Source: an uncultured Actinomycetota bacterium
GTDB lineage: Bacteria > Actinomycetota > Actinomycetes > Streptomycetales > Streptomycetaceae
Reading direction: 5' to 3'
DNA: 64,000 nt
NCBI GenBank assembly: GCA_963836215.1
Contig: CAWIIU010000005.1
Coordinates: 690,334-754,333, forward strand
The notes under the pieces were generated by a model, which searched no databases, was not told the origin of the DNA, and saw nothing but the letters and a program-made list of their open reading frames with translations. Each line of letters begins with the position of its first letter. Within the stretch, counting starts at the first letter, position 1. Made by a program: the position numbers and the translations under genes. This document shows, in pieces, positions 53,968-57,817 of the stretch.

Positions 53968-54522
53968 ATGCGTGCCCTACGCGTCGCGTCCCTCGCCGCC
54001 ATCGGCTCAGCCGCCGCGCTGGCCCTCGGCGCACCCGCCGCCCTCGCCGACGAAGAGGGCGACATCACTCCGTTCGGCTTCACCGTCACTCCCGAGGAGG
54101 TCGCTCCCGGCGAGACGGTGACGCTCAACGCCACCGAATGCGATTCCCCGACCATGACCGCCTCGTCCGGTGTCTTCGAGACCGTGACGCTCCAGGAGGG
54201 GCTGCCCGCCACGGCGACCGTCTTCGAGGACGCCAAGCCCGGCGCCGACTACGACATCACCTTCGACTGCAAGGGCGAGAAGGCCACCACCACCCTCACG
54301 GTCAGCGCGACCGCCACTGCGTCCCTCACCCAGACCGTTCCCGGCACCGCCACGCACACCCCGAGCCCTCTGACCAAGCCCGACGGCGGCGTGAAGGCCG
54401 GATCCGGCGGCAGTCTTCCCGGGCTGAGCCCGACGCAGACCGTCCTGGGTTCCGTGCTGGTCGCGGGCGCGCTCGGCGGCGGTGTCGTACTGCTGCGCCG
54501 CCGTGCCGGGGCCGGCGGCTGA
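53968..54522 (+). CDS. Secreted/surface protein with a C-terminal GGVKAG motif, TM helix and basic tail (candidate class F sortase substrate)
   Basis: Signal peptide ending ALA; Thr-rich linker; PDGGVKAGSGG...hydrophobic...LLRRR. Confidence 0.8.
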   Translation: MRALRVASLAAIGSAAALALGAPAALADEEGDITPFGFTVTPEEVAPGETVTLNATECDSPTMTASSGVFETVTLQEGLPATATVFEDAKPGADYDITFDCKGEKATTTLTVSATATASLTQTVPGTATHTPSPLTKPDGGVKAGSGGSLPGLSPTQTVLGSVLVAGALGGGVVLLRRRAGAGG

Positions 54523-54538
54523 GAAGTCCGGCGCCTCG

Positions 54539-55171
54539 ATGCACACCACAGCCCGGCGTGGCTCCTGGTTCACGCTCCTGTGCGTTCTGCTGCTCGGCGT
54601 GTTCTTTCTGCGCAACGGGACCACCGACGCGGCGGAGGGGCCGCCCCGGCCGGCGAGCGCCGTCGCGGCGCAGCACCGGGCTGCCGTTCCCTTGGCGCCC
54701 GCTCCCGGCCCGCTCCCCCACTCCGCGCCACGGCGGATCACGGTCCCGTCCCTGCGGCTGGACGCCCCGGTCACCAGGGTCGGCCTCGACGGAGACGGCT
54801 GGGTGGAGCCGCCACCGCTCACCGACAGCAACCTGGCCGGCTGGTACGTGGGCGCGGCGGCTCCGGGCGGGCGCGGCACGTCGGTGATCGTCGGTCATGT
54901 CGACAACGCGGCCGGCCCCGCGGTCTTCTATCTGCTGGGCTCGCTGAAGCCGGGCAGCCGGATCGAGATTCTCCGCGGGGACGGGGCCACGGCCGTCTTC
55001 ACCGTCTACGGCGTGGAGATGTACGGCAAGAAGGACTTCCCCGCCGACCGCGTCTACCGGGACGGGCCGGACCCCGAGCTGCGCCTGATCACATGCGGCG
55101 GCGGCTACACGAAGAAGACCGGCTACGACGGCAATGTGGTGGCTTTCGCGCGGCTGACCGAGGTGCGCTGA
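54539..55171 (+). CDS. Class F sortase
   Basis: AGWY, PGGRGTSVIVGHVD, VFYLL, LRLITCGG, YDGNVV. Confidence 0.92.
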   Translation: MHTTARRGSWFTLLCVLLLGVFFLRNGTTDAAEGPPRPASAVAAQHRAAVPLAPAPGPLPHSAPRRITVPSLRLDAPVTRVGLDGDGWVEPPPLTDSNLAGWYVGAAAPGGRGTSVIVGHVDNAAGPAVFYLLGSLKPGSRIEILRGDGATAVFTVYGVEMYGKKDFPADRVYRDGPDPELRLITCGGGYTKKTGYDGNVVAFARLTEVR

Positions 55172-55273
55172 GGGCTTCACACCCTGCGGCGCAGGTCGTG
55201 CGCAGACCCGTACTCCGGGGCGCGCACCCGCCGAGGCCGCCTCGGAGCCGGCCGGGCAGGGCAGACTGGGGGC

Positions 55274-55489
55274 ATGTCCGCACCCCGCCGTCTGTGCCAG
55301 GTCTGCCGACGTGAGATCGCCGTCGTCGCGGGCCGGTTCGCCCGCCATGACCCGCCCGCCTCACGCACCGCCACCGATCTGGTCTCCTGCCCCGGATCGC
55401 TGCGCCATGCGCCGTACGATCCGGCGGTCCAGCCGTCGCTCGACGGGGCCGTCGTGCCCGCCTTCCCGGGCCAGCTGCCGCTGTTCTGA
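55274..55489 (+). CDS. Small hypothetical protein (71 aa) with CxxC...H...C and C-terminal QLPLF
   Basis: CQVC, ARHD, SCPGS; ends CAG CTG CCG CTG TTC TGA; fills the gap between sortase F and nagB. Confidence 0.7.
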   Translation: MSAPRRLCQVCRREIAVVAGRFARHDPPASRTATDLVSCPGSLRHAPYDPAVQPSLDGAVVPAFPGQLPLF

Positions 55490-55569
55490 GCGGCGGCCCG
55501 CTTCGTTCGCCTCACGTTCCCCGGGATGCCACAGGCCACCGCGCGACAAGACCCCCACCCACCGGGTAG

Positions 55570-55585
55570 ATTGGTCTACACCAGT
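55570..55585. promoter_or_regulatory. DasR-responsive element (dre)
   Basis: ATTGGTCTACACCAGT, two mismatches to ACTGGTCTAGACCAGT, 24 nt before nagB. Confidence 0.85.
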
Positions 55586-56392: not shown

Positions 56393-56554
56393 CCCTGCCC
56401 CTTCACGCTCCGGCCGGGTGGGGGGAATTGTCTCGTCCTCAACAAATTCCGCACCGAACGGCTCCTATCCGCTGCCGAGTTGATACGGTGCGCTGGCTCA
56501 GCACTTGACGCGCGTTCAACTGACGCACGTACGTGCAAGCCCCGGGGGATTTCC

Positions 56555-57817
56555 ATGAGCGACGACATCGATGACGACATACATGTGGTCAGAGCGAGTC
56601 TGGAACGTGTCAGGCGGCGTGCCGGACATGTGGTCCGCTACTTCTACGCGCGTCTGTTCCGCCACCATCCGGAGCTGCGCCCGCTGTTCCCCGCGGCGCT
56701 GGACGACCAGTACGAGCGGCTGTTCACCGCCCTCGTCCATGTGGTGGAACACCTCGGACACCCCGGGCTCCCGGGGCACCTGGAGCGACTCGGCCGGGAT
56801 CACCGCAAGTTCGGGATCCTGGAGGAGGACTACACCGCGGTCGGTGAAAGCCTGATCGCCGCGATCCGCCACCACAGCCCGAGTTCGTGGGACGAGACCA
56901 CCGAGCGGGCCTGGCAGCGGGTCTACGACTACGCCGCCGCGACCATGACCGGCGGCGCCCGCCGGTCGTTCGCCGACAACGAGCCCGCCTGGTGGGAGGG
57001 AAAGGTCGTCTCGCACCGGTTGCACGGCGAGCACACGGCCGTGGTCCGGGTCGCCGTCAGCGTCGCGTACCCGTGGGAGCCGGGCCAGTACGCCACGATC
57101 GAGCATCCCGAACTGCCGGGTGTGTGGCGGCCGTACTCGCTCGCCGGACCGCGAGGCGGCGGCGATGTACTGGAATTCCACGTCGGCCGGGTGGCGGGCG
57201 GAGCACTCAGCAACATGCTCTGCGACCGTGTCGAGCCCGGGCAGGTGTTGCGGCTCGGCGCCGCGTCCGGCTCCGCGCTCGCCCCACCGCCGGGCACCCC
57301 GGCCGTCACCCTCGTCGCCGCCGGCACGGGCTGGGCACCGGTCAAGTCGGTCCTCGACGAGTTACTCGCCCGAAGACCCGCTCCCCGCATCCGTATCGAC
57401 GTCGTGGCACGGGGCGAGGCGCACTTCTACGACGGCGCCGCGCTGGACGACATCCTGCGGCGCCACCCCTATCTGAGCGCCTACTGGTGGTATCAGGAGC
57501 GCGGCGAGGGCCAGATGCGCGCCGCGGAGCGGCTGCACACACATCTGCGGGCGCGCCACGACTGGCCCGACGAGAGCGTCTATCTCTGCGGCCCCGTGAT
57601 GTTCGTGCAGGAGACGGCCGAGCTGTTGCACGAGTGCGGACTTCCCGAGCAGTCGCTCATCCGCGACCCGCTGCCCAGCTCCGTCAGACAGCGCGGCCAT
57701 GTCTCCCACGCCGAGGCGTTCCTCGATCCCCCGCCGGTGAACTGGATCGACCCGGACGCCCGCACGCGCCCCCTCGGTCTCACGCTCCCGGCGCCGCAGA
57801 GCGCCATCGGTCACTGA
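56555..57817 (+). CDS. Flavohaemoglobin-like protein (globin + FAD/NAD-binding reductase)
   Basis: FYARLF...RPLFP...Q...GRDHRKFG globin; WRPYSLAG, AAGTGWAP, YLCGP; about 45-aa extra C-terminal tail. Confidence 0.9.
   Translation: MSDDIDDDIHVVRASLERVRRRAGHVVRYFYARLFRHHPELRPLFPAALDDQYERLFTALVHVVEHLGHPGLPGHLERLGRDHRKFGILEEDYTAVGESLIAAIRHHSPSSWDETTERAWQRVYDYAAATMTGGARRSFADNEPAWWEGKVVSHRLHGEHTAVVRVAVSVAYPWEPGQYATIEHPELPGVWRPYSLAGPRGGGDVLEFHVGRVAGGALSNMLCDRVEPGQVLRLGAASGSALAPPPGTPAVTLVAAGTGWAPVKSVLDELLARRPAPRIRIDVVARGEAHFYDGAALDDILRRHPYLSAYWWYQERGEGQMRAAERLHTHLRARHDWPDESVYLCGPVMFVQETAELLHECGLPEQSLIRDPLPSSVRQRGHVSHAEAFLDPPPVNWIDPDARTRPLGLTLPAPQSAIGH

What the first reader, a model, noticed from the sequence alone, without database searches (positions are those of the whole stretch)
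55274..55489. 71-aa Zn-ribbon-like microprotein ending in a beta-clamp-binding-like motif (QLPLF)
Seen: CQVC near the N-terminus, a His and a third Cys (four candidate Zn ligands), and the extreme C-terminal pentapeptide QLPLF. Known: QL[S/D]LF-type pentapeptides, often terminal, dock proteins on the DnaN sliding clamp. Inference: an undescribed small clamp-binding factor (replication or repair modulator, or clamp inhibitor). No LexA box was seen upstream.
Basis: partly seen in the sequence, partly recalled or inferred. Interest (0 to 1): 0.62.

Follow-up and report, generated by a model that had tools for sequence, protein, structure and literature searches.

The report
Small zinc protein with clamp-docking tail
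This is a real, strongly conserved 71-residue gene of an undescribed Streptomyces-family protein group: a zinc-binding head plus a floppy tail ending in a peptide (QLPLF) that closely resembles those that dock proteins onto the DNA sliding clamp, and in many relatives it sits behind a DNA-damage-type promoter.

Summary
ORF 55274..55489 (+) encodes 71 aa with C8-x2-C11, H25, C39 and the C-terminal QLPLF. It is a real gene. There are hundreds of Streptomyces orthologues of about 70 aa, dN/dS is 0.16, and the last six codons are the most constrained (0.057) despite free synonymous change. A profile search found 94 clusters at 50% identity, nearly all 50-120 aa. All named relatives are Streptomycetaceae, all are 'hypothetical', and none matches Pfam, NCBIfam or a solved fold. 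C11, H25 and C39 are invariant. The tails vary but usually carry a QxxL[F/D] motif after the head and an LF or QxxLF motif at or near the end. QLPL+aromatic matches the validated mycobacterial ImuB clamp motif QLPLWG. This genome's DnaE1, DinB and NucS carry QFDLF, QEDLF and KLRLF-COOH.

The gene stands alone and looks leaderless, with a conserved -10 (CAGACT) 6 nt before the ATG. All 18 divergent members whose promoters I read, and 14 of 96 orthologues, also carry a PafBC-type tGTC -26 element at the exact spacing. The window's copy does not.

Best reading (about 0.55): a small clamp-docking factor of the DNA-damage and replication sphere.

The parts
55274..55489 (+). Coding sequence of the 71-aa protein (stop TGA at 55487-55489).
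   Evidence: Searches give the ORF. One search gives coding-like GC by codon position. One search gives dN/dS 0.16 over 91 orthologues. Searches give the homologues.
55262..55267 (+). -10-like hexamer CAGACT, followed by 6 nt and then the A of ATG. This predicts a leaderless mRNA starting at 55274.
   Evidence: GGCA[C/G]ACTG[G/A]NNNC-ATG is conserved in about 25 of 25, and then about 96, orthologue promoters. The same architecture ([TC]AnnnT, then N5-8, then ATG) occurs in 28 PafBC-type leaderless promoters of this genome. The TSS itself was not measured.
55246..55253 (+). Position where relatives carry the PafBC -26 element (TGTCRGTG). Here it reads AGCCGGCC, so the element is degenerate or absent.
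   Evidence: One search shows the window versus 14 of 96 orthologues with GTC at this exact offset. The consensus tGTCgg(N10)tA(N3)T is from PMC8635444.
55231..55245 (+). Short GC hairpin CCGAGG-CCG-CCTCGG between the sortase stop and the promoter. It may mark the end of the upstream transcript.
   Evidence: Read directly. The consensus scan called no T-tract terminator.
55274..55402 (+). N-terminal zinc-binding head, residues 1-43: PRR-C8xxC11-R-E-I-A-V-V-A-G-R-F-A-R24-H25-D26-P-P ... L-V-S-C39-P-G-S.
   Evidence: C11, H25 and C39 are invariant. C8, R5, R13, A16, R24, D26, L36, S38, G41 and S42 are in at least 90% of 96 family sequences. AF2 block-mean pLDDT is about 72-90 here, with a beta-hairpin at 5-7 and 14-18.
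55295..55306 (+). First zinc knuckle, C8-Q-V-C11.
55346..55348 (+). H25, candidate third Zn ligand, inside the near-invariant R-H-D.
55388..55390 (+). C39, candidate fourth Zn ligand, inside the conserved S-C-x-G-S.
55430..55447 (+). Tail motif 1, Q53-P-S-L56-D-G. It aligns with QxxLF, QLTLD, QLSF and QLDLL in other subfamilies.
   Evidence: Q53 and L56 are in at least 90% of alignment A1. dN/dS is 0.115. 48 of 115 family tails have the motif against 3.7 in shuffles.
55469..55486 (+). Tail motif 2, G66-Q-L-P-L-F71 at the C-terminus. This is the candidate beta-clamp-binding motif.
   Evidence: dN/dS is 0.057. The tally is GQLPLF 69, GQMPLF 18, and one each of GQQPLF, GQMPLW, GQLSLF and GQMSLF. 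The matching validated motif is ImuB QLPLWG.

Best explanation
The ORF is a stand-alone, probably leaderless gene. It encodes a member of an undescribed Streptomycetaceae-specific family of small proteins (about 60-110 aa).

The N-terminal 43 residues form a CCHC zinc knuckle or ribbon rich in conserved Arg, and are probably the effector or nucleic-acid-binding part. The remaining 28 residues are a disordered tail carrying two short linear motifs: QPSLDG and the C-terminal GQLPLF.

The most likely mechanism is that the C-terminal Q-L-P-L-F peptide inserts into the hydrophobic peptide-binding cleft of the DnaN sliding clamp, as the QLPLWG of ImuB or the C-terminal tail of NucS do. The zinc head would then be tethered to clamps at replication or repair sites, or the protein would compete with polymerases for the cleft, because it is so small and carries two such motifs.

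In the wider family the gene sits behind a PafBC-type DNA-damage promoter, which places the function in the DNA-damage or replication-stress response. The window's own copy has kept only the -10 part of that promoter, so it may be expressed constitutively or under different control.

Shown here: the gene is real, the ligands and motifs are conserved, the promoter architecture holds, and there is no operon partner. Inferred: zinc binding, clamp binding, damage induction, and whether the protein acts as an adaptor or an inhibitor.
For: Real gene under purifying selection:
- Searches show the coding signature, the homologues and the dN/dS values. The tail end is the most constrained segment (dN/dS 0.057).

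Family-wide conservation of the tail, with variable linkers:
- 63 of 115 distinct tails end in [LIM][FW], against 1.0 in shuffles.
- 32 have Qxx[LIM][FW] within about 15 residues of the end, against 0.7 in shuffles.
- 48 have the first motif, against 3.7 in shuffles.
- Some subfamilies carry textbook motifs: GQLDLF, AQLSLF, QLDLL.
- In the large-genome subfamily the second motif is internal (ELFAG..., SLFAG...). This fits a clamp motif, not one that needs a free carboxylate.

Match to validated actinobacterial clamp motifs:
- ImuB 352-QLPLWG-357 (PMC10421592).
- The NucS C-terminal motif is needed for DnaN binding (PMC6159521).
- This genome's NucS ends in KLRLF, its DnaE1 has GQFDLFG and its DinB has TQEDLFA.

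Structure:
- The tail is predicted as coil, with block-mean pLDDT 65-70.

Promoter:
- A -10 plus leaderless start is conserved in all orthologues.
- GTC sits at the exact PafBC -26 offset in 14 of 96 orthologues, against a background of about 2 per offset. TGTC[AG] sits there in 7 of 91 in the earlier ATG-anchored count.
- The element (TGTC, GGTC in one) is present in all 18 divergent members I read: 5 and 13.
- The consensus is from PMC8635444.
- The same promoter type drives recA, radA, uvrB, polA, dinB, ligA and dnaX in this genome (identified by reading their N-termini). The real motif has 73 hits and 28 leaderless ORFs, against 0-3 leaderless ORFs for permuted controls.
Against: - No binding, expression or metal data exist.
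- The window's own promoter lacks the -26 GTC, as do about 85% of main-subfamily orthologues. Damage induction of this copy is therefore doubtful.
- Q at -5 is found in only about 28% of the wider family's tails. The universal feature is just a hydrophobic-Phe near the end, which could serve another partner.
- The fold of the head has no recognisable relative (best Foldseek E 5.5; no PDB sequence match of note).
- Gene neighbours are unrelated and vary between clades, so genomic context gives no support.
Confidence: 0.55

Rival explanations
1. The tail is a real docking motif but its partner is not DnaN. It might bind an SSB-interactome protein (mimicking the SSB C-terminal tip), RNA polymerase or PafBC, or a protease or unfoldase adaptor. 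The zinc head would then do something unrelated to the clamp.
For: The only tail feature common to nearly all subfamilies is a hydrophobic residue plus Phe at or near the C-terminus, often after acidic residues (ETEDDVLTIF, EESGNDGGATLF). That loosely recalls the acidic tail and terminal Phe of SSB. Q at -5 is missing in many subfamilies.
Against: - The window protein has no acidic residue in its last six positions, and its Pro is at -3, not -2.
- Several subfamilies carry the LF motif internally, followed by 8-25 more residues. That does not fit a motif read through its free carboxylate.
- Where Q is present, the motif matches validated clamp motifs exactly (QLPLW, QLDLF, QLSLF).
Confidence: 0.2
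2. It is a small zinc-ribbon nucleic-acid-binding or regulatory protein, for example a transcription or translation modulator. The conserved C-terminus would then be structural (folding back on the head, or dimerisation) rather than a partner-docking peptide.
For: Conserved basic residues R5, R6, R13 and R24 lie around the zinc site. The top, non-significant Foldseek hits are ribosomal zinc-ribbon proteins. The tail pLDDT of 65-70 is not extremely low.
Against: The linker between head and tail varies widely in length (about 10 to more than 50 residues) and in sequence, while the motifs persist. That is typical of short linear motifs, not of a packed element. AF2 assigns no secondary structure to residues 45-71.
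Confidence: 0.15
3. It is a precursor of a ribosomally made peptide or another exported small peptide, or it is not a functional protein at all.
For: It is small, contains Cys and has a conserved C-terminus.
Against: - Neither the window nor relatives have neighbouring maturation or export genes, and the context changes between clades.
- There is no signal peptide. The N-terminus is basic and immediately followed by CxxC.
- Conservation is highest in the head and the last six residues, not in a leader/core pattern.
- dN/dS of 0.16 excludes a non-coding element, and there is no Rfam match.
Confidence: 0.03

Closest known systems
[quoted passage not shown]
   Same: The peptide is almost identical (QLPL + aromatic). 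It comes from an actinobacterium, belongs to a DNA-damage-induced system, and is experimentally required for DnaN binding and displaced by griselimycin (PMC10421592). One family member even ends in GQMPLW.
   Different: ImuB is a protein of about 500 aa, a catalytically dead Y-family polymerase, and its motif is internal. There is no sequence or fold relation to the 71-aa zinc protein. Only the motif is shared.
NucS/EndoMS C-terminal clamp-binding tail (actinobacteria)
   Same: It has a short hydrophobic peptide at the extreme C-terminus ending in LF. This genome's NucS ends in KLRLF. Deleting the tail in C. glutamicum abolishes DnaN binding and function (PMC6159521).
   Different: NucS is a mismatch endonuclease of about 220-270 aa, its motif has no Gln, and the family is unrelated.
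YabA of Bacillus subtilis (small zinc-binding protein that contacts DnaN and DnaA); from memory
   Same: It is a small (about 120 aa) protein with a 3Cys+1His zinc site that binds the sliding clamp and regulates replication.
   Different: YabA has an N-terminal tetramerising coiled coil and a C-terminal zinc domain. Here the zinc domain is N-terminal, no helix or coiled coil is predicted, and no sequence similarity was found. It is not a member.
Small clamp-cleft competitors: Caulobacter toxin SocB, the Hda N-terminal QLSLPL, phage-encoded clamp inhibitors, griselimycin; from memory apart from griselimycin (PMC10421592)
   Same: The concept is the same: a small molecule or protein occupies the DnaN peptide cleft and displaces polymerases. 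A two-motif tail could in principle occupy both clefts of the dimer.
   Different: There is no homology. An inhibitory role here is pure inference.
PafBC (RecA-NDp) regulon genes of actinobacteria
   Same: Relatives have tGTC(R)G at -26, a -10 [TCG]AnnnT exactly 8 nt downstream, no -35 and a leaderless start. This genome's recA, radA, uvrB, polA, dinB and ligA have the same layout (consensus from PMC8635444).
   Different: The window's own copy has AGCCGGCC instead of TGTCRGTG. No homologue of this protein has been reported in the mycobacterial regulon, and all named relatives found are Streptomycetaceae.

Membership tests
Beta-clamp clients carrying a clamp-binding motif (QL[SD]LF / QxxL[FW] type) | A penta- or hexapeptide matching the consensus (Q at position 1, aliphatic at 4, aromatic or Leu at 5). 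| tested here: met
   The protein ends in QLPLF. That equals the validated ImuB QLPLWG in 4 of 5 positions, with an aromatic at position 5. This genome's DnaE1 has QFDLF and its DinB has QEDLF.
Beta-clamp clients carrying a clamp-binding motif (QL[SD]LF / QxxL[FW] type) | The motif lies in a flexible, exposed segment, often terminal. | tested here: met
   The motif is at the extreme C-terminus. AF2 assigns no secondary structure to residues 45-71, with block-mean pLDDT 65-70.
Beta-clamp clients carrying a clamp-binding motif (QL[SD]LF / QxxL[FW] type) | The motif is conserved in homologues while flanking linkers diverge. | tested here: met
   dN/dS is 0.057 for the last six codons against 0.30 for the linker. 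All 91 orthologues end in GQ[LMQ][PS]L[FW]. Family-wide enrichment over shuffles is shown.
Beta-clamp clients carrying a clamp-binding motif (QL[SD]LF / QxxL[FW] type) | Physical binding to the DnaN cleft that depends on the motif. | not testable with these tools
   No complex prediction or experiment was available. Only single window or locus proteins could be folded.
PafBC-dependent (RecA-NDp) promoters | A -26 element tGTCgg placed N10 upstream of tA(N3)T. | tested here: not met
   The window has AGCCGGCC at 55246-55253, with no GTC. The feature is met in 14 of 96 orthologues and in all 18 divergent relatives I read.
PafBC-dependent (RecA-NDp) promoters | A canonical -10 with A2 and T6, and no -35. 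| tested here: met
   CAGACT sits at 55262-55267. There is no conserved -35 in the information profile and no sigma-70 consensus hit.
PafBC-dependent (RecA-NDp) promoters | Induction by DNA damage, dependent on pafBC. | not testable with these tools
Zinc ribbon / zinc knuckle proteins | Four Cys/His ligands arranged in two knuckles. | tested here: met
   The ligands are C8-x2-C11, then x13 to H25, then x13 to C39. C11, H25 and C39 are invariant and C8 is in at least 90% of 96 sequences.
Zinc ribbon / zinc knuckle proteins | Fold similarity to a solved zinc ribbon or treble clef. | tested here: inconclusive
   The best Foldseek E-value against the PDB is 5.5. The top hits are ribosomal zinc-ribbon proteins and none is significant.
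YabA family | An N-terminal coiled-coil tetramerisation domain plus a C-terminal zinc domain. | tested here: not met
   No helix of that kind is predicted and the zinc site is N-terminal. There is no Pfam match.
SSB C-terminal-tip mimics | An acidic run followed by [IL/P]-P-F with a free carboxylate. | tested here: not met
   The last eight residues, FPGQLPLF, contain no acidic residue. Relatives carry the LF motif internally.

The most novel reading that the evidence does not exclude
The family is a previously unrecognised, Streptomycetaceae-specific output of the PafBC DNA-damage response. It would be a two-motif 'clamp plug' whose tandem QxxL[F/D] ... QxxLF peptides occupy the clefts of the DnaN dimer. 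That would pause or remodel replication, or exclude particular polymerases, after damage. The mechanism would be that of a natural protein counterpart of griselimycin, made by the same group of bacteria that makes that clamp-targeting antibiotic.
Probability: 0.2. Interest if true: 0.8.

Novelty: new variant of a known kind. Interest (0 to 1): 0.6.

Why it matters
The sliding clamp is the hub of bacterial replication and repair, and a validated antibiotic target in actinobacteria (griselimycin, mycoplanecin). I found no published small clamp-binding regulator for Streptomyces in the text searches I ran.

An abundant, lineage-specific family of about 70 aa would be a compact tool for studying clamp traffic if the reading is right. 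It combines an invariant zinc head, one or two clamp-type motifs and, in many members, a DNA-damage promoter. It would also be a new component of the poorly charted RecA-independent damage response of Streptomyces.

The family is invisible to Pfam and NCBIfam and is annotated only as 'hypothetical'. Even the negative outcome (the motif binds another partner) would define a new short linear motif system.

Tried and rejected
- Pfam, NCBIfam and PHROGs gave no family. The only hits were a sub-threshold Sgf11 match and weak phrog_9420 matches for some relatives.
- The PDB sequence profile search found nothing meaningful.
- The Foldseek PDB search with the better AF2 model found nothing with E below 5. 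The first AF2 run on a shallow alignment was too poor to use (pLDDT 65.7).
- tblastn of a relative against phages found no match, so there is no evidence for phage origin.
- Synteny does not help. The sortase-ORF-nagB arrangement is shared only with the S. clavuligerus-like clade. Elsewhere the gene lies between a convergent NmrA-family gene and assorted upstream genes (YajQ, an MFS transporter), a few kb from rpmG and murB, or in other contexts.
- The UniRef names 'Uracil-DNA glycosylase' and 'HNH endonuclease' on some 70-aa members have no support in any domain search, so I treated them as automatic labels.
- There is no LexA box upstream and no Rfam element. The scan called no sigma-70 consensus promoter and no T-tract terminator.
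- The antisense 120-aa ORF (55177..55539, -) has a non-coding GC pattern.
- The search for related loci with the broad alignment failed because no stretch was conserved enough.
- Text searches for 'QLPLF' and for small clamp-binding proteins in Streptomyces or mycobacteria found no description of this family.

Full report
**Observation**

The window is Streptomyces DNA at 70.7% GC; the homologues are all named Streptomyces. The ORF at 55274..55489 (+) reads MSAPRRLCQVCRREIAVVAGRFARHDPPASRTATDLVSCPGSLRHAPYDPAVQPSLDGAVVPAFPGQLPLF. GC by codon position is 0.76/0.60/0.85, the coding signature for this genome. The overlapping antisense ORF lacks that signature.

**Is it a gene?**

Yes.

- A protein search returned 285 homologues. 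Almost all are 70-75 aa, all named ones are Streptomyces, and all are labelled 'hypothetical protein'.
- 29 of 37 same-genus genomes (the window's own included) have a hit at E <= 0.01, 25 of them a clear full-length copy. None of 24 genomes from other families of the order has one.
- A pattern scan of one genome per species found at least 589 loci.
- I extracted 91 distinct orthologous coding sequences and computed Nei-Gojobori dN/dS. Overall it is 0.16, the zinc head 0.15, the linker 0.30, QPSLDG 0.115 and the last six codons 0.057.
- Those last six codons show abundant synonymous variation, for example four Gly codons, CAG/CAA and four Pro codons. The C-terminal tally is GQLPLF 69, GQMPLF 18, and one each of GQQPLF, GQMPLW, GQLSLF and GQMSLF.
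- In this genome only 2 of 77,425 ORFs of 50 aa or more end in Q[LM]xLF.

**The wider family**

A profile of 31 sequences was searched against 1.84 billion cluster representatives. It found 94 clusters at E <= 0.001, nearly all 50-120 aa. A second search that returns names placed all named members in Streptomycetaceae: Streptomyces, Kitasatospora, Embleya, Yinghuangia and Actinacidiphila.

In a 96-sequence alignment C11, H25 and C39 are invariant. C8, R5, R13, A16, R24, D26, L36, S38, G41 and S42 are present in at least 90%. The head is therefore PR..C-x2-C-xR-x[IV]A...G...R-H-D-P-P...L-[VI]-S-C-x-G-S, a CCHC site.

No Pfam, NCBIfam or PHROG family covers it. AlphaFold2 on the deep alignment gives mean pLDDT 78. 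The block means over the head (residues 1-50) are 72-90, with a beta-hairpin at 5-7 and 14-18, and the rest is coil at 65-70. Foldseek against the PDB finds nothing better than E = 5.5.

**The tails**

Tail sequences differ greatly in length and composition, but two short motifs recur.

- The first motif lies about 10-15 residues after SCxGS. Examples are EQPLLFE, VQPVLFD, IQPELFE, QLTLD, QLSF and QLDLL. In the main Streptomyces group it is QPSLDG.
- The second motif lies at or near the C-terminus. Examples are GQLDLF, AQLSLF, VQPSLF, EQDALF, TLF and TIF. Here it is GQLPLF.

Among 115 distinct tails:

| Feature | Observed | Shuffle mean |
|---|---|---|
| Ends exactly in [LIM][FW] | 63 | 1.0 |
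| Has [LIM][FW] within the last 12 residues | 91 | 11 |
| Has Qxx[LIM][FW] within about 15 residues of the end | 32 | 0.7 |
| Has the first motif | 48 | 3.7 |

In one subfamily, from 10-14 Mb genomes, the second motif is internal (…ELFAGSAP…). A free carboxylate is therefore not required.

**Comparison with validated clamp motifs**

The mycobacterial ImuB motif 352-QLPLWG-357 is required for clamp binding and focus formation. The clamp-cleft antibiotic griselimycin disrupts that interaction (PMC10421592). QLPLF differs from it only in the aromatic residue, and one family member ends in GQMPLW.

The C-terminal tail of actinobacterial NucS is needed for DnaN binding and for function (PMC6159521). 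This genome's NucS ends in KLRLF. This genome's DnaE1 carries GQFDLFG and its DinB carries TQEDLFA.

That test is met. Physical binding remains untested.

**Promoter and regulation**

All orthologues share GGCA[C/G]ACTG[G/A]NNNC immediately before the ATG. This gives a -10-like hexamer (here CAGACT, 55262-55267), then 6 nt, then the A of the ATG. It is the layout of a leaderless transcript. No -35 is conserved.

In a subset, TGTC[AG]GTG lies exactly 8 nt upstream of the hexamer. That matches the PafBC consensus tGTCgg(N10)tA(N3)T, the '-26 element' of the actinobacterial RecA-independent DNA-damage promoters (PMC8635444).

- GTC occupies that exact offset in 14 of 96 distinct orthologue promoters, against about 2 at neighbouring offsets.
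- The element is present in all 18 members of divergent subfamilies whose promoters I read (17 TGTC, 1 GGTC), each followed by a -10 and a start codon 6-7 nt later (5, 13).
- The window's own copy reads AGCCGGCC there (55246-55253), as do its nearest relatives in degenerate forms.

Damage induction is therefore likely for the family but not established for this copy.

As a control, this genome has 73 matches to TGTCRGTG-N8-[TC]AnnnT. Of these, 28 are followed at 5-8 nt by a coding-like ORF, against 0-3 for six permuted -26 elements. By reading their N-termini I identified those ORFs as including RecA, RadA, UvrB, PolA, DinB, LigA and DnaX. The promoter class is thus real and repair-linked in this organism.

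**Context**

The gene stands alone. Here and in S. clavuligerus it lies between a class F sortase and nagB. In S. chartreusis-type genomes it lies between a convergent NmrA-family gene downstream and different upstream genes (YajQ in one genome, an MFS transporter in another), a few kb from rpmG, the MaoC genes and murB. Divergent members sit in yet other places. No partner gene is conserved, there is no phage match and no mobile-element signature was seen. nagB has its own DasR-type site (see the passing notes), so co-transcription is unlikely.

**Interpretation**

The best-supported reading has four parts.

- The protein has a small zinc-binding head that could bind nucleic acid or a partner, given the conserved Arg residues.
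- The head is tethered by a disordered tail.
- The tail's terminal QLPLF, and possibly the upstream QPSLDG, dock on the DnaN clamp.
- The family belongs to the DNA-damage and replication-stress sphere.

The data cannot decide whether the protein brings an activity to the clamp or simply competes for the cleft. Two motifs on a 70-aa protein make a competitor plausible.

The rivals, in order of weight, are these. The tail may bind a different partner, because the universal feature is only hydrophobic-Phe. The tail may be structural. A peptide-precursor or non-gene reading is effectively excluded.

**Limits**

No complex model and no metal data are available. Model coordinates could not be inspected. 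The literature searches cover open-access text only and found no description of this family.

Noticed in passing
window 55570-55585 (+): ATTGGTCTACACCAGT lies about 25 nt upstream of the GTG (55611) of the glucosamine-6-phosphate deaminase gene nagB. It closely resembles the DasR-responsive element (consensus recalled from memory: A[CG]TGGTCTAGACCA[CG]T). nagB therefore probably has its own GlcNAc-regulated promoter, separate from the small gene.
   Followed up: no
whole genome G000 (e.g. C6:35496 recA-like, C4:622575 radA-like, C5 minus-strand hits uvrB-, polA-, dinB- and ligA-like): TGTCRGTG-N8-[TC]AnnnT has 73 hits. Of these, 28 are followed 5-8 nt later by a coding ORF (leaderless), against 0-3 for permuted controls. 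I identified the ORFs as RecA, RadA, UvrB, PolA, DinB, LigA, DnaX and several nucleases or helicases by reading their N-termini only. So a PafBC-type RecA-independent damage regulon appears to exist in Streptomyces. A 2022 S. venezuelae study reported that an initial search did not find the motif conserved (PMC9380542).
   Followed up: partly
window 53968-55171 (+): A 184-aa secreted, Thr-rich protein with a C-terminal TM helix is followed by a class F sortase (Pfam Sortase, E 1e-19). The same pair precedes the small gene in S. clavuligerus.
   Followed up: no
L128:743-1288 (+) and about 40 similar weak hits: A separate conserved protein of about 150-210 aa in many Streptomycetaceae carries a related CxxC...RH...C-x-GSG module (LRVKCPECHQAIAVFAQEEKLPRHG...TVCQGSG). 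It is divergently placed next to an AsnC/Lrp-type regulator. It has no LF tail. It may be a distant paralogue of the zinc head.
   Followed up: partly
L026:1468-1677 (-) and L027:1492-1713 (+): Some Streptomyces carry a divergent family member ending in TTLF or ATLF with an internal GQ[TL][AT]LD. I saw no -26 element or conserved -10 upstream of these. One genome (G033) has this type plus a further weak, partial match elsewhere.
   Followed up: partly
window 56480-57817 (+): A 445-aa protein with a globin domain plus FAD- and NAD-binding oxidoreductase domains, i.e. a flavohaemoglobin-like architecture.
   Followed up: no
UniRef names of P0009, P0014 and P0135: Three 70-71-aa members are titled 'Uracil-DNA glycosylase' or 'HNH endonuclease' in UniRef, while NCBI calls them hypothetical. 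No domain search supports either name.
   Followed up: yes
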